Below, one piece after another: positions 51,001 through 64,000 of a stretch of DNA of 64,000 bases. The stretch lies in the NCBI RefSeq assembly GCF_054482525.1, contig NZ_CM137006.1; one strand, written 5' to 3'. Under the pieces are notes generated by a model. It saw only the letters and a program-made list of their open reading frames with translations. It ran no database searches and was not told the DNA's origin. Position 1 is the stretch's first letter, and each line of letters opens with the position of its first letter. The position numbers were made by a program, and so were the translations under genes.

Positions 51001-54000
51001 GAGTGTGATCCAGGTCGCGCCGCCATCGAGGCTAATCTGCGCCACTTCGCCGCTGGCAAGCCCCACCCCCAGCGAACCGGTTAGGGTGAGCGTGGTGTCA
51101 CTGGTGATAAAGTCAGTTGCCGAACTCCCCGTGTCGGTGCTGATGCTGGCGATGGTGAGCACCTGCGCCGGGTTAACGGTGTCAATCTGCGCCGACTGGC
51201 TGCCGGTTGCGCCAACGTTGCCCGCAAGATCGACTACCCGCACCTGCCAGGTGGTGGTGCCGTTGGTGAGCGTACGCCCGTCAACGTAACTCCAGTTAAG
51301 GCCGTCTGCCGCCAGCGTTACGTTCACCCAGGTTGCACCGTTATCGGTACTGATTTGCGCGAACTCGTTAGCGCCGAGCGCTGCGCCCAATACGCCGCGC
51401 ACGGTAAGCGTGGTGTCGCTGGTAATAAAATCGCTGCTGCTGGCTCCGGTGTCATCGCTGATGCCGGTAATGGTGATACTTTTCGCCGCTTCCGGGCTGG
51501 TGGTATCGACCACCACGTTTTGCGTCGCCGTCTGCCCGACGTTCCCCGCCAGATCCACCACCCGCACCGTGTAGTTCCAGGTGCCGTCGGTCAGTGTGCG
51601 ACCATCGGCATAGCTCCAGTTGGTGCCGATAACGGTTAAGGTGGTCCAGGTAACGCCGCCGTCGAGGCTGATTTGCGCCCGTTCATCGGCGGCCAGCGCC
51701 GCGCCGAGCGTGCCGCGCACGGTCAGCGTGGTATCGCGAGTAACAAAATCGCTGCTGCTTAACCCGGTGTCATCGCTGATGCCCACAATGGCGATGGTTT
51801 TGCTCGCCAGCGGCGCGGTGGTGTCCACAGTGACTATCTGGCTGGCGGTCGCGCCGATATTTCCGGCGGTGTCGATCACCCGCACCTGATAGTTGTAGTT
51901 GCCGTCGCTCAGCGTGCGCCCGTCAAGATATGTCCAGGTTAAGCCGCTTACCGAAAGATTCTGCCAGGTGGTGCCGCCGTCGATGCTGATTTGCGCGAAC
52001 TCACCGGCAGAAAGCGCCGCGCCCAGCGTGCCGCTCACCGCAAGCGTCGTGTCGCTGGTGACAAAATCGTTAGTGATCAGGCCCGTATCAGTGGTGATCG
52101 CGCTGATGGCGATGGTTTTTACTGCTGGATCTGGCGCGATGGTGTCGATCACCACGTTCTGGCTGTCAGTGGCACCGACGTTGCCCGCCGCGTCAATCAC
52201 CCGCACCTGATAGAGATAGTTGCCATCGGTCAGCGTGCGGCTGTCGTTATAGCGCCAGGTCGTGCCGGTAACGGTGAGCGTGGTCCAGGTTACGCCGCCG
52301 TCGATACTGATTTGTGCCGTCTCGTTACTGGCAAGCGCGGCGGTGAGCGAGCCGTTGACCACCACCGGGCTGACGCTGGTGATAAAGTCGCTGGCGCTAA
52401 GCCCGGTGTCGGCTTGCAGGGAATCGATATTAATGCCCATCGCCGGAGCGCTGAGATCGACGGTAATGGTGTGATTGCTGCTGCCGGTGTTGCCAATGGC
52501 GTTGCTCACCGAGGCGTTAATCACGTAGGCGTTACCGTCCGCCAGCGCGGTGACATCGGCGCTGCCGAGGGTGTAGCTCCAGCTACCGCCCGTCTGCACC
52601 GTGGTGGTGTAGGTTTTGCCGTTTAAGGTCAGGGTCAGCGTCTGCCCGACTGGGGCGGTGGTGGTGCCGCTGATCACCAGCGACGAGCCGTGCTCCGCTG
52701 CATTCACCACATCATCACCCGCAAAGGTGTTGATGGTGACGGTAGGCACATCGCCGTTCAACGTCACGCCACGGCTGGCGCTGCCGGAGTTTCCGGCCTG
52801 ATCGCTGACCGTCGCGCTAATGGTGTAGCTGCCGTCGCTTAATCCGGCAAACTGCTGCGCCGGAATAAACACCGACCAGCTTCCGCCGCTGCCGACCGTG
52901 GCGGTCCAGGTTTGTCCGTTAAAGGTGACCGTCACCGTCTGGCCCACTTCGGCGGTGGTGGTGCCGCTGATGGTCTGCCCGGCGAGCTGTTCGGCGTTGT
53001 TGATAATATCGTCACCCGCCACCGTGGCGATGGTGACCGTGGGCGCAACGGTATCGACGGTCAGGGCGTGCGTGGTTTGACCGGGATTGCCCGCGCGATC
53101 GTTCACGCTGGCGGTAATAGTCTGCGCGCCCTGCCCGAGCGCGGCAAGATCCGCCGCAGGCACGTTAAGCGCCCAGGTGCCATTGGCGGCAACCGTGGCG
53201 GTATAGGTTTTGCCGCCAAAGGTGACGGTGACCGTCTGCCCTACTTCCGCGCTGGTCGAGCCGTTAAGGGTTAACGGCTGCTGTTGTTCGGCGGCGTTGA
53301 GTCGGTCGTCCGTCGAAACGGTGTTAATGCTGATAACTGGCGCGGTGAGATCCACCGCCACGCTGCGCGAAGCCGTGGCGCTGTTTCCGGCGCTGTCCTG
53401 CGCAGAGGCGCTAACCGTGTAGCTGGTGCCATCGGCAAGCGCCGCAACGTCTGCCGCCGGCACGTTCACGCTCCAGCTCCCGTTGCTCTGAATGGTAGCG
53501 CTATAGCCTTTGCCGTTAAGCAACACGGTCACCACTGTACCTGCGGCAAAGTTCGTTCCGGTGCCGCTCAGGGTCAGCGCACTGCCTGCTTCGGCGGCGT
53601 TAATAATATTATCGCCGCTGATGGTGCTGACCGAGAGCGACACTGCCGCCGTGTTCACCTGCACGTTGTGCGTCTGCGTGCTGCTGTTGCCTGCGCTATC
53701 GGTGACAGTGGCGCTGATAGTCACTGTGCCGTCCGCAAGGCCGGAAATCACGCTGGCAGGCACGCCGACGCTCCAGTTGCCGCTGGCATCGGTGCTGGTG
53801 ACATACTGCTGCCCGGCGATGGTCACCACCAGGCGGTCGCCCGCCACCGCGCCCGTGGCGGTGCCACTGATAATCTGCGCCTGAGTGTGTTCGACGTTGT
53901 TAATCACATCATCGCCCGCCACAGTGTTGAAACTGATCACCGGCGCAGTGGTATCGACGGTCACGCCTTTGCTGGCGCTGCCAGGGTTACCCGCCTGATC

Positions 54001-63000: not shown

Positions 63001-64000
63001 TACTGGCTGGCGGTCAGATTGCTGAGATCTGCCGTCGGCACGCTGACACTCCAGCTCCCGTCCGCCAGGACGGTGCCGGTGTAAGTCACGCCATTAAGCG
63101 TGACAGTTACCGTCTGCCCCGCTTCGGCGGTGCTACTGCCGCTGATGGTTAGCGGATTGCCCGCCTCGGCGGCGTTCAGAATATCGTCGGTGGCGATGGT
63201 GTTAATGGCAAGCGTCGGTGCCGTGGCATCGACGCTGTAGGCGTGGGTTGCAGAAGCCGTGTTGCCGTTAACGTTACTGACGCTGGCCTGCACCGAGGCG
63301 TCGCCGTCGCGTAACGCGCTGAGATCGGCGGCAGGCACGGTGGTTGTCCAGCTACCATCGCCCGCTACGGTAGCGGTGTAGGTTTTCCCGCCAATGGTAA
63401 CGGTGACCGTTTGCCCCGCTTCCACGCCGGAGGTGCTGCCTGAAAGGGTTAAATCTGCACTTTTTTCAGCGGCATTAATCACATCGTCGCCGGAAACGGT
63501 GTTAATGGAGATCGCCACAGCTGCCAGATCGACGGTGACTGGATGGGTGATGGTGACCGGGTTTCCTGCGCTAGTAGCACCTGAAACCGTGATATTCACC
63601 GTACCCGCAGGCCAGTTGCCTACATTTGCCGCCGGAACGCCAAGGCTCCATGTGCCATCGGCTAATACTGTCGCGCCATAGGTGACGTTATTGATCACCA
63701 CCGTCAGCGCCGCGCCCGCCGCCAGCCCGCTGCTGCTACCAGTTATCACCAGCGCCTGACCGTGTTCGATGCTGTTAACCACATCATCGCCCGCCACGGT
63801 ATCGACGCGCAGACCCGGCAGGTTGGCGTCTATCACAATATCGCGCGAACCGCTGCCAGTATTGCCAACACCGTTGGTTACCGAGGCATTAACCGTCAGC
63901 TCGCCATTACCGATGGCCTGAATATCCGCCGCCGGAACGTCCACGCTCCAGCTTAAATTCCCCTGCACGGTAGCGGTGTAGGTTTTCCCGCCAAGTGTTA
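48055..64000 (-). CDS. giant Ig-repeat adhesin, probable type I secretion substrate (LapA/SiiE/BapA-like); 5' end beyond window; apparent frameshift near 62,940-62,975
   Basis: 4960-codon ORF 48055-62937 continuing in another frame 62913-63968 and beyond; about 45 tandem ~100-aa Ig-like units, a FG-GAP/VCBS-like Ca-binding segment, C-terminal GGxGxD-type motifs (GRGGNDTLNIGNGGHDTL) and acidic C-terminus; stop 3 bp before the ABC transporter gene. Confidence 0.85.
50875..52470 (-). repeat. five tandem ~315-bp repeats of a second domain type
   Basis: Units begin VDTTAP/IDTIAP ... and share DTG.S..DF.TSDTTL...G.LGAAL...E.AQIS.DGG.TW..L.....W.Y.DGRTL.DG.Y.YQVRV.D.AGN.G. Confidence 0.75.
52470..64000 (-). 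repeat. tandem ~300-bp coding repeats (Ig-like domains) organised in ~1.8-kb super-repeats
   Basis: Recurring protein units ...VDLTAP..INT.AGDD.INA.E......SG.S.G...G..VTV.....Y...; antisense ORF artefacts of near-identical sequence recur at 54422, 56213, 57998, 61592, 63394 (spacing ~1.79-1.80 kb). Confidence 0.85.

What the first reader, a model, noticed from the sequence alone, without database searches (positions are those of the whole stretch)
52470..64000. Nested repeat architecture: ~300-bp domain units inside ~1.8-kb super-repeats, at least six copies
Plus-strand antisense pseudo-ORFs with almost identical translations recur at 54422, 56213, 57998, 61592 and 63394, giving a period of about 1.79-1.80 kb (six Ig-like units). 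Such long, highly similar direct repeats are substrates for RecA-mediated expansion and contraction, so adhesin length probably varies between strains, and short-read assemblies are likely to collapse or mis-join this region.
Basis: seen in the sequence. Interest (0 to 1): 0.55.

Follow-up and report, generated by a model that had tools for sequence, protein, structure and literature searches.

The report
Six-domain cassette repeats in adhesin siiEA
The region is the stalk-coding part of siiEA, a known giant secreted E. coli adhesin, built from an old six-domain cassette repeated seven times; the nested repeat is real and strains do differ in length, but the copies are far too diverged to be an unstable hot spot.

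Summary
The nested periodicity is real. Window 52420-64000 (minus strand) encodes ~100-aa calcium-binding Ig-like "extender" domains of siiEA, the type I-secreted BapA/RTX-family adhesin of E. coli O-island 28. The T1SS ABC and HlyD genes and cueR lie next to it.

In the intact gene of a 99.985%-identical strain (7,227 aa, 55 domains), domains 9-50 are seven copies of a six-type cassette A-F, each 1,794-1,803 nt. All 42 domains have their nearest paralogue a multiple of six domains away. The window holds five complete copies and parts of two more.

The copies are not "almost identical":
- Nucleotide identity is 67-80%, dS is about 1 and dN/dS about 0.2.
- The longest exact repeat is 29 nt in the window and 34 nt in the whole gene.
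- The same cassette occurs in Enterobacter and other Enterobacteriaceae, so the amplification is ancient.

Length does vary across E. coli, with alleles of 35-55 domains. The differences are whole-domain deletions of 1, 3, 6, 12 and 17 domains. The three junctions mapped lie in identity islands of about 20-39 nt. One six-domain deletion occurs in 86 complete genomes.

The four nearest relatives have identical structure, so this is slow contraction, not hypervariability. Short-read collapse is unlikely here.

The window copy also carries a 1-nt frameshift at 62969-62970.

Verdict: ordinary, known system, with a descriptive refinement.

The parts
48055..64000 (-). 3' 15.9 kb of siiEA (BapA-related, type I-secreted RTX-family giant adhesin). 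The 5' 5.7 kb lie beyond the window end. Stop codon at 48055-48057.
   Evidence: ORF 48055..62937 plus ORF 62913..63968. 99.985% identical over 20.4 kb to strain 19KM1776, where RefSeq annotates an intact 21,684-nt siiEA. NCBIfam Ca_tandemer (38 stretches), Ig_like_ice (35) and T1SS C-terminal domain.
52420..64000 (-). Tandem array of 99-101-aa calcium-binding Ig-like extender domains: domains 55 back to part of 17 of the 55 in the full protein. Each starts with the motif D-[DN]-x-[ILV]-N-x-x-E.
   Evidence: Motif spacing of 98-102 aa. Domain coordinates mapped to the window. Pfam Big_13. Homology to the MpIBP RII tetra-tandemer 4P99, E=6e-54, and to RTX adhesin 5IRB.
61099..62892 (-). Super-repeat copy 3 (domains 21-26, types A-F), 1794 nt.
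59299..61098 (-). Super-repeat copy 4 (domains 27-32), 1800 nt. Domains 26-31 are the six lost in the ECSC054-type allele.
57505..59298 (-). Super-repeat copy 5 (domains 33-38), 1794 nt.
55708..57504 (-). Super-repeat copy 6 (domains 39-44), 1797 nt.
53914..55707 (-). Super-repeat copy 7 (domains 45-50), 1794 nt.
62893..64000 (-). Part of super-repeat copy 2 (domains 20, 19, 18 and part of 17). Copy 2 is the youngest relative of copy 3: 80% nt identity, dS 0.63.
52420..53913 (-). Five terminal extender domains (51-55). Domains 51-53 resemble their counterparts six domains upstream only weakly (about 50% identity; 31% and 50% for domains 54 and 55); a decayed edge of the array.
   Evidence: Offset-6 identities fall to 31-52% here. 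Coordinates.
62969..62970 (.). Frameshift site. The window has CC where the close relatives 19KM1776 and SCU-102 have CCC (GGG on the coding strand, codon GGT of ...DKAGNPAS...). It breaks the reading frame inside domain 20 and produces the 62913/62937 ORF break and the odd 1793-nt spacing.
   Evidence: Three-frame translation. Base-by-base comparison with L001.
54422..63681 (+). They are a by-product of the GC-rich repeated coding sequence on the other strand, not genes.
   Evidence: Pairwise identity 61-74%.
50865..52410 (-). A second, different repeat type: ~106-aa Ig-like domains (318-321-nt period) between the extender array and the C-terminal region.
   Evidence: TRF period 318. The repeat finder family D14. 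Big_13 hits.
49105..50031 (-). FG-GAP-like repeats (probable beta-propeller, candidate ligand-binding region).
   Evidence: Pfam FG-GAP_3, three hits with E 2e-9 to 3e-7.
48067..48765 (-). RTX nonapeptide repeats (48427-48765) and type I secretion C-terminal target domain (48067-48375).
   Evidence: HemolysinCabind. TIGR03661, 32 bits against a cut-off of 17.6.
45889..48051 (-). Type I secretion ABC permease/ATPase (LssB subfamily).
   Evidence: TIGR03375, 836 bits against a cut-off of 693. RefSeq annotation.
44717..45892 (-). HlyD-family type I secretion adaptor, followed by cueR (44313-44720).
   Evidence: TIGR01843, 328 bits against a cut-off of 209; cueR NF007590. RefSeq annotation.

Best explanation
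**What it is.** The region is the stalk-coding part of siiEA, the giant adhesin gene of the E. coli type I secretion island between ybaT and cueR (O-island 28 of O157:H7). The intact protein has 7,227 aa. It comprises an N-terminal BapA-type prefix domain, 55 tandem ~100-aa Ca2+-binding Ig-like extender domains, a few ~106-aa Ig-like domains, an FG-GAP propeller-like region, RTX repeats and a C-terminal T1SS signal.

**How the stalk works (inferred).** By homology with MpIBP region II, each extender domain adds about 4.5 nm of Ca2+-stiffened rod. The stalk would then be roughly 250 nm long, and one cassette about 27 nm.

**How the array arose.** Forty-two of the 55 domains are seven copies of one six-domain cassette (types A-F). 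The cassette was amplified long ago: synonymous sites between copies are near saturation, and the same cassette order, including copy-specific variants, is found in Enterobacter. Since then each copy has evolved separately under purifying selection. The array is therefore now a set of ~70-80% identical homeologous repeats, not a homogeneous tandem array.

**How length changes.** Such repeats recombine only rarely. When they do, the exchange occurs at short islands of perfect identity (about 20-39 nt) and removes whole domains, often whole cassettes. This produces the shorter alleles seen in other E. coli lineages. The window's 55-domain allele is the long, ancestral-like and rare form. In this assembly it is interrupted by a single-base frameshift.

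**Shown:** gene identity, domain and cassette architecture, divergence, allele structures, junction sequences.
**Inferred:** stalk length, direction of change (deletion), and recombination as the mechanism.
For: **Identity**
- 99.985% identity to RefSeq siiEA loci.
- T1SS ABC, HlyD and C-terminal signal above curated cut-offs.
- RTX and FG-GAP Pfam hits.
- Extender domains match 4P99 at E=6e-54.
- The island's role in adherence has been reported for O157:H7 (PMC12758282).

**Architecture**
- Lag spectrum.
- Domain-offset identities.
- 42/42 nearest paralogues in register.
- Within-type identity 64-82% against 36-50% between types.

**Age**
- Copies are 67-80% identical in nt, with dS 0.95-1.24 (0.63 for copies 2/3) and dN/dS 0.15-0.24.
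- The Enterobacter hormaechei homologue has the same A-F order and a 1797-nt period. It shares copy-specific variants, for example the EKTQDL B-variant.
- Period 6 is also seen in Enterobacter cloacae and Jejubacter, and weakly in Dryocola representatives.

**Length polymorphism**
- Domain strings of 14 alleles.
- The one-cassette deletion junction lies in a 29-nt perfect island that is the longest match at the 1,800-nt lag of that deletion in the long allele. The two-cassette junction lies in a 26-39-nt window. The 17-domain junction lies in ~20 nt.
- The one-cassette junction is present at >=99% identity in 86 of 955 carrier genomes. The 12-domain junction is in 2 genomes and the 17-domain junction in 1.
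- Domains 4-6 of the 55-domain form are present in only 26 genomes but have orthologues in Enterobacter, so the long form is ancestral.

**Stability**
- The nearest relatives are colinear.
- Domain length of ~45 Å, and deliberate recoding of identical repeats to ~70% DNA identity to stop recombination in E. coli, are reported in PMC4083281.
Against: - No experiment here shows that the protein is made. In the window the gene carries a frameshift, and many alleles are annotated as pseudogenes.
- The mechanism of the deletions (RecA-dependent or slippage) is not resolved by sequence alone.
- The census of alleles is a sample of about 14 of ~959 carrier genomes, so frequencies of length classes are incomplete.
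- One allele (PEC011) suggests a recent expansion, which may be real or an assembly artefact.
- In Enterobacter some cassette copies are nearly identical (exact repeats up to 149 nt). The family can therefore undergo recent duplication or conversion, even though this E. coli gene shows none.
Confidence: 0.85

Rival explanations
1. The array is an active recombination hot spot: long, near-identical direct repeats undergo frequent RecA-mediated expansion and contraction. Copy number would then differ even between close isolates, and short-read assemblies would collapse the region.
For: - Length classes differing by exactly one or two cassettes exist.
- PEC011 carries a perfect 2,526-nt tandem duplication.
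- The Enterobacter homologue has near-identical cassette copies.
- RTX adhesins with identical repeats are known to be misassembled from short reads (10.1101/2025.09.30.679566).
Against: - Copies are only 67-80% identical, with dS ~1.
- The longest exact repeat is 34 nt.
- Three near-identical strains and the window have identical structure.
- One specific deletion junction is shared by 86 genomes. It is an old inherited event, not recurrent flux.
- All polymorphisms interpretable by hybrid junctions are contractions.
- The PEC011 duplication is 2,525 nt, which is neither a multiple of 3 nor of the domain length.
Confidence: 0.1
2. The whole-domain deletions arise by RecA-independent replication slippage or microhomology-mediated template switching between short identical islands. 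They do not arise by RecA-mediated unequal crossing-over.
For: - Junction islands are only ~20-39 nt, at or below the ~30-bp minimal homology cited for RecA recombination.
- The 17-domain deletion joins non-equivalent domain types at a ~20-nt motif.
- One- and three-domain deletions also occur.
Against: - The repeats are 0.3-5 kb apart. From general knowledge of E. coli, RecA-independent deletion between short repeats falls steeply with distance (not tested here).
- The commonest event used the longest identity island available at that 1,800-nt lag. This fits a homology-length-dependent process.
- Sequence alone cannot discriminate between the two.
Confidence: 0.3
3. The six-domain cassette is itself a selected structural or functional module. 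The six types would have distinct roles, or would set a ~27-nm structural period. On this reading the order A-F is kept by selection, not just by descent.
For: - Type-specific consensus sequences are conserved across seven copies with dN/dS ~0.2.
- The A-F order is shared with Enterobacter, and period 6 recurs in several diverged clusters.
- The only deletion that reached appreciable frequency is in register.
Against: - Relatives in the same family show periods of 2, 3 and 5, uniform arrays, or no periodicity.
- Out-of-register alleles (deletions of 1, 3 and 17 domains) exist as intact ORFs.
- In-register events are favoured by homology anyway, so their prevalence does not need selection.
- MpIBP works with 120 identical domains (PMC4083281).
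Confidence: 0.12
4. The periodicity is an assembly artefact in this record.
For: None beyond the single-base frameshift, which could be a sequencing error.
Against: - The same architecture is found in independent complete genomes and in about 950 other E. coli genomes.
- The copies are diverged, not duplicated reads.
Confidence: 0.01

Closest known systems
E. coli SiiEA (RefSeq 'BapA-related adhesin SiiEA'), the product of O-island 28 of EHEC O157:H7 (z0609/z0615 = rtxA28/rtxB28, with tolC28, hlyB28, hlyD28; PMC12758282)
   Same: It is the same gene and locus: between ybaT and cueR, with a TolC-like gene upstream and ABC plus HlyD genes downstream. Identity to named RefSeq loci is 92-100%.
   Different: The window's lineage has the longest allele class (55 domains), found in 26 of ~959 carrier genomes. 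O157:H7 EDL933 has 51 domains and an internal TAG that splits the gene into the two 'RTX genes' of the paper. The six-domain cassette organisation is not described in that paper.
Marinomonas primoryensis ice-binding adhesin MpIBP/MpAFP region II (PDB 4P99; PMC4083281)
   Same: The extender domain is homologous (E=6e-54): a ~100-aa Ca2+-dependent Ig-like fold in a head-to-tail tandem array, in a T1SS-secreted RTX adhesin. It is the probable model for how the stalk works.
   Different: MpIBP has ~120 repeats identical even at DNA level. SiiEA has six diverged domain types in a cassette, with copies 67-80% identical in DNA.
Salmonella BapA and SiiE (giant T1SS adhesins with 29 and 53 BIg domains; PMC6272769, PMC5466336)
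   Same: Same overall design and secretion route. The RefSeq name links SiiEA to BapA, and the N-terminal BapA prefix domain PF22783 is present in relatives.
   Different: Orthology to BapA was not tested here. Whether BapA has a six-domain cassette was not examined. SiiE belongs to a different island (SPI-4).
Higher-order extender patterns in RTX adhesins (pairs of dissimilar extenders repeated in series, and 'more complex patterns'; bioRxiv 10.1101/2025.09.30.679566)
   Same: Same phenomenon: a multi-domain unit, not a single domain, is what was amplified.
   Different: The unit here is six domains and the copies are old and diverged. The survey shows periods of 2, 3, 5 and 6 and uniform arrays among relatives.
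Titin and nebulin super-repeats (analogy only, from general knowledge)
   Same: Ig-like domains arranged in multi-domain super-repeats, where equivalent positions are more similar than neighbours.
   Different: Unrelated proteins. In titin the period matches a partner filament; no such partner is known here.

Membership tests
T1SS-secreted RTX/BapA-family giant adhesin (SiiEA) | C-terminal type I secretion signal domain and RTX nonapeptide repeats | tested here: met
   TIGR03661, 32 bits against a cut-off of 17.6. HemolysinCabind, E=2e-4.
T1SS-secreted RTX/BapA-family giant adhesin (SiiEA) | Adjacent dedicated T1SS genes (ABC transporter, membrane fusion protein, TolC-like outer membrane protein) | tested here: met
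   ABC TIGR03375 and HlyD TIGR01843 are above their cut-offs in the window. The TolC-family gene lies just upstream of siiEA in the near-identical loci, outside the window.
T1SS-secreted RTX/BapA-family giant adhesin (SiiEA) | Long tandem array of Ca2+-binding Ig-like extender domains | tested here: met
   NF033510 Ca_tandemer, 38 stretches. Big_13. 4P99 at E=6e-54. Ca2+ binding itself is inferred from homology.
T1SS-secreted RTX/BapA-family giant adhesin (SiiEA) | N-terminal BapA/Bap/LapF prefix-like domain | tested here: met
   The domain is outside the window. PF22783 is recorded for proteins 96-98% identical to the N-terminus of the 99.985%-identical allele.
T1SS-secreted RTX/BapA-family giant adhesin (SiiEA) | Near-identity to the named RefSeq siiEA gene at the same chromosomal locus | tested here: met
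T1SS-secreted RTX/BapA-family giant adhesin (SiiEA) | Intact reading frame, and a surface-exposed protein that mediates adherence | tested here: not met
   The window copy has a 1-nt frameshift at 62969-62970. Close relatives are intact. Function is not testable here; adherence is reported for the O157 island (PMC12758282).
Homogeneous, recombination-prone tandem repeat array (contingency-type length variation, as in MpIBP RII or Bap C-repeats) | Repeat copies identical or nearly identical at DNA level | tested here: not met
   67-80% nt identity. Longest exact repeat is 29 nt in the window and 34 nt in the gene.
Homogeneous, recombination-prone tandem repeat array (contingency-type length variation, as in MpIBP RII or Bap C-repeats) | Copy number differs between closely related isolates | tested here: not met
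   The window, 19KM1776, SCU-102 and PCN033 are colinear. Differences appear only between diverged lineages.
Higher-order (super-repeat) domain organisation | Similarity peaks at a fixed multiple of the basic unit, with position-specific domain types | tested here: met
   Offsets 6/12/18/24 against all others. 42/42 nearest paralogues in register. Type matrix.
Higher-order (super-repeat) domain organisation | Conservation of the cassette in homologues from other taxa | tested here: met
   Enterobacter hormaechei locus. Period 6 in E. cloacae and Jejubacter (weaker in Dryocola) and in unnamed representatives, while Citrobacter amalonaticus shows period 3 and Franconibacter period 5.

The most novel reading that the evidence does not exclude
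The six-domain cassette may be a selected module, not just a frozen duplication unit. On this reading the six extender types have distinct structural or binding roles. Their fixed order would have been maintained by selection across Enterobacteriaceae genera since before the Escherichia/Enterobacter split, giving the stalk a ~27-nm structural period, as a bacterial counterpart of titin-like super-repeats.
Probability: 0.12. Interest if true: 0.5.

Novelty: already known. Interest (0 to 1): 0.22.

Why it matters
The gene and its island are already named and partly characterised, so this is not a discovery of a new system.

What the analysis adds is a correct picture of the repeat:
- A seven-fold, six-domain cassette that is ancient and diverged.
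- A catalogue of natural whole-domain deletion alleles (35-55 domains), with three junctions mapped in detail.

This matters practically in four ways:
- The gene should assemble correctly from short reads, unlike RTX adhesins with identical repeats.
- Allele length can be typed and used as a lineage marker.
- The 'two RTX proteins' of O157:H7 are one adhesin gene split by a stop codon.
- The natural allele series offers ready-made material to test how stalk length affects adherence.

Tried and rejected
- Tandem Repeats Finder did not report the 1.8-kb period because its longest period is 500. A k-mer lag spectrum was used instead.
- A single-breakpoint model on whole genes failed for most allele pairs, because small indels near the N-terminus shift the register. 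Anchoring on domain boundaries solved it.
- Counting deletion alleles by query coverage failed for the in-register junctions. Hybrid junctions align end to end with either parental copy at 81-89% identity. The >=99% identity band was used instead.
- The word-indexed protein search with the N-terminal 285 aa returned only fragments of up to 497 aa, so it could not be used for periodicity analysis. The Apirhabdus hit is a decayed remnant.
- I considered a third nesting level, a three-domain sub-cassette with A~D, B~E and C~F. This was suggested by similar N-terminal motifs, lags near 897 nt and recurrent three-domain deletions. Whole-domain identities do not support it: A-D 0.46, B-E 0.46, C-F 0.48, against other type pairs of up to 0.50. 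It is left as unproven.
- Assembly artefact as the origin of the periodicity was rejected.
- The source strain was not identified. It is a fourth member of the 19KM1776 / SCU-102 / PCN033 lineage, and 2012C-4221 is a mosaic relative.

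
Full report
**1. The observation**

A giant minus-strand reading frame fills the region: ORF 48055..62937 (4,960 aa) and, in another frame, 62913..63968.

A k-mer lag spectrum of 48-64 kb peaks at 1794, 1797, 1800, 3591, 3594, 5385-5391 and 7185 nt. Within 52420-64000, shared 10-mers number:
- 505 at 1795±6, 452 at 3592, 329 at 5388 and 215 at 7185;
- 58-168 at other multiples of ~299 nt;
- at most 5-8 at any lag in triplet-shuffled controls, and 12 in an unrelated coding region.

The repeat finder independently returns families spaced 1794/1797/1794/1800/1793 nt. 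Tandem Repeats Finder missed this because its maximum period is 500.

A sixth copy near 59789 is cut by a stop. However, they are 61-74% identical, not almost identical. Sliding identity between neighbouring 1.8-kb copies is about 0.6-0.8. The longest exact direct repeat in the window array is 29 nt.

The periodic architecture is therefore real and far beyond chance. The claimed near-identity is not.

**2. What the gene is**

NCBIfam finds the following in the large ORF:
- 38 Ca_tandemer repeats;
- 35 Ig_like_ice domains;
- a type I secretion C-terminal target domain.

The next genes are a LssB-type T1SS ABC transporter, a HlyD adaptor and cueR.

The DNA matches E. coli chromosomes. 957 of 5,426 complete genomes carry most of the 43.6-50 kb query, and 959 match the adhesin gene itself. 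RefSeq names it siiEA, 'BapA-related adhesin SiiEA', with a TolC-family gene upstream.

Over 20.4 kb the window is 99.985% identical to strain 19KM1776. It differs by two substitutions and one missing base. In that strain and in SCU-102 the gene is an intact 21,684-nt ORF of 7,227 aa. The window contains its 3' 15.9 kb.

The island is O-island 28 of EHEC O157:H7. A 2025 study reports that it is needed for early adherence and is activated by RstA and calcium (PMC12758282).

The C-terminal 1,199 aa contain Big_13 domains, FG-GAP-like repeats and RTX nonapeptides. One 600-aa cassette matches the crystal structure sequence of the MpIBP region II tetra-tandemer (4P99) at E=6e-54, and other RTX adhesin extenders. 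Pfam calls the units Big_13.

**3. The anatomy of the repeat**

The motif D-[DN]-x-[ILV]-N-x-x-E marks 55 domains spaced 98-102 aa in the intact protein.
- Domain pairs 6, 12, 18 or 24 apart average 61-65% identity. All other offsets give 43-46%.
- Domains 9-50 fall into six types, A-F, in fixed order, making seven cassettes of 598-601 aa.
- Every one of these 42 domains has its most similar paralogue at a multiple of six.
- Within-type identity is 64-82%, against 36-50% between types.

In window coordinates, the complete cassettes are:

| Cassette | Coordinates |
|---|---|
| Copy 7 | 53914-55707 |
| Copy 6 | 55708-57504 |
| Copy 5 | 57505-59298 |
| Copy 4 | 59299-61098 |
| Copy 3 | 61099-62892 |

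Part of copy 2 runs to the window end, and a decayed tail (domains 51-55) occupies 52420-53913.

A possible three-domain sub-unit was considered. It is not supported by whole-domain identities.

**4. Age of the copies**

Pairwise, the seven cassettes are 67-80% identical in DNA and 64-82% in protein. dS is 0.95-1.24, dN is 0.13-0.28 and dN/dS is 0.15-0.24. Only copies 2 and 3 are somewhat younger, with dS 0.63.

The longest exact repeat anywhere in the 21.7-kb gene is 34 nt.

An Enterobacter hormaechei homologue has the same A-F order and a 1797-nt period, and it shares copy-specific variants with E. coli. The amplification therefore predates the split of these genera. There, unlike in E. coli, some copies are nearly identical, with exact repeats up to 149 nt. 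This points to recent duplication or conversion in that lineage.

A search of 1.84 billion representative proteins returned many giant relatives. Their periodicities are:
- Period 6, strong: Enterobacter cloacae, a second E. coli cluster, Jejubacter and unnamed clusters.
- Period 6, weak: Dryocola.
- Period 3: Citrobacter amalonaticus.
- Period 5: Franconibacter.
- Period 2: one cluster.
- Several arrays are nearly uniform, and many show no higher-order period.

Multi-domain repeat units in RTX adhesin stalks are already described in general terms in 10.1101/2025.09.30.679566.

**5. Does length vary between strains?**

Yes. Annotated gene lengths range from 15,678 to 21,684 nt for intact ORFs.

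Domain strings against the 55-domain reference:

| Strain(s) | Domains | Difference from the 55-domain reference |
|---|---|---|
| JSWP006, NRZ14408, O145 RM13516 | 52 | lack 4-6 |
| EDL933 | 51 | lacks 4-6; also lacks 28 |
| ETEC4079 | 49 | lacks 4-6; also lacks 11-13 |
| ECSC054, 48956 | 46 | lack 4-6; also lack 26-31, exactly one cassette (1,800 nt) |
| MLI114 | 40 | lacks 4-6; also lacks 23-34, two cassettes (3,594 nt) |
| CE10 | ~39 | lacks 11, 16-27 and 38-40 |
| 2017-02-2CC | 35 | lacks 4-6; also lacks 14-30, 17 domains, out of register |

Junctions:
- The one-cassette junction lies in a 29-nt perfect identity island, ACCATCAACACCATCGCCAGCGACGATAT, shared by the two parental copies. It is the longest exact match at that 1,800-nt lag in the long allele.
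- The two-cassette junction lies in a 26-39-nt window.
- The 17-domain junction lies in ~20 nt.

Direction of change:
- Parental copies differ by ~27% while alleles differ by ~5%, so the short forms must be deletions from a long ancestor.
- Enterobacter retains counterparts of domains 4 and 5, so the 55-domain form is ancestral.

Frequencies among complete genomes:
- The one-cassette junction occurs at >=99% identity in 86 of 955 carriers.
- The two-cassette junction occurs in 2 genomes.
- The 17-domain junction occurs in 1 genome.
- Domains 4-6 occur in only 26 genomes.

The window, 19KM1776, SCU-102 and PCN033 are colinear. No instability is seen on short time scales.

**6. Mechanism**

Shown:
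- the gene, its domain and cassette structure, and its divergence;
- the existence of whole-domain deletion alleles;
- the sequence of three of their junctions.

Inferred:
- *Stalk geometry.* The stalk is a Ca2+-stiffened rod. At ~45 Å per homologous domain (PMC4083281), 55 domains give ~250 nm and one cassette ~27 nm.
- *Deletion mechanism.* The deletions come from rare recombination or template switching at short identity islands. The minimal homology for RecA-dependent recombination is cited as ~30 bp (PMC2327257). Recombination by RecABCD between 22%-diverged genes was 100-fold less than by the λ Red pathway.
- *A useful benchmark.* The MpIBP authors recoded identical repeats to ~70% DNA identity specifically to prevent recombination in E. 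coli. That is the natural state of this gene.

Whether the events need RecA cannot be decided from sequence.

**7. Assembly**

Nothing of 35 nt or longer is repeated within the gene. De Bruijn assembly at k>=35 and mapping of 150-nt reads should therefore be unambiguous. It would be reasonable for the Enterobacter homologue, or for adhesins with identical repeats. This was not tested with reads.

**8. Other points**

- The window copy has CC at 62969-62970 where two close relatives (19KM1776, SCU-102) have CCC. This shifts the frame inside domain 20. It may be a real inactivating mutation or a sequencing error.
- Frameshifts or internal stops are annotated in many alleles.
- EDL933 and RM13516 each have a single internal TAG. 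This explains why the O157 literature counts two RTX genes.

**9. Verdict**

This is a known adhesin gene of a known family. The nested repeat is real and is described here in more detail than I found in the literature searched.

Its premises (high similarity, active recombination substrate, assembly collapse) are not.

Interest is low to modest.

Noticed in passing
window 62969-62970 (ORF break at 62913/62937): There is a single-base deletion in a C run (CC against CCC in strains 19KM1776 and SCU-102). It frameshifts siiEA inside extender domain 20. It could be a true pseudogene or a sequencing error.
   Followed up: partly
window 42168-43601 (+), tandem repeats at 42936-43265: A YadA-like trimeric autotransporter adhesin gene lies next to cueR and contains 21- and 42-nt tandem repeats. 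It is annotated as 1,296 nt in the window's lineage and in MLI114 but 1,017 nt in several other strains, so it is a second length-variable adhesin at the same locus.
   Followed up: no
L011 (E. coli PEC011), siiEA gene nt 4987-10038: There is a perfect 2,526-nt tandem duplication at a lag of 2,525 nt. That lag is not a multiple of 3 or of the domain length, and the gene is annotated as frameshifted. It is either a very recent expansion or an assembly artefact.
   Followed up: partly
L016:10001-21149 (Enterobacter hormaechei): The homologous adhesin has the same six-type cassette. Two of its copies are nearly identical (domains 96-100% identical, exact repeats up to 149 nt), and an in-frame TAG follows aa 382. 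This shows recent duplication or conversion in that lineage, unlike in E. coli.
   Followed up: partly
L009 (EDL933) siiEA aa 1461; L014 (O145 RM13516) aa 1240: Each allele has one internal TAG. The 'two RTX proteins' rtxA28/rtxB28 of the O-island 28 paper correspond to one siiEA gene split by a stop codon.
   Followed up: partly
L017 (E. coli 2012C-4221) siiEA: This is a mosaic allele. Domains 3-7 are 100% identical (domain 8 99%) to the window's lineage, while the rest are about 85-99% identical. This suggests allelic recombination between lineages within the gene. siiEA and the TolC-like gene are both annotated as frameshifted.
   Followed up: no
L002 (E. coli PCN033): This near-identical strain has its own single-base deletions in the HlyD gene and in siiEA, at positions different from the window's frameshift.
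   Followed up: partly
window 48000-64000 against its flanks: siiEA has 59-63% G+C and a negative AT skew on the plus strand, against about 47-55% G+C in most of the neighbouring 2-kb windows. This is consistent with an acquired island, with the Gly/Ala/Thr/Val-rich composition of the protein, or with both.
   Followed up: no
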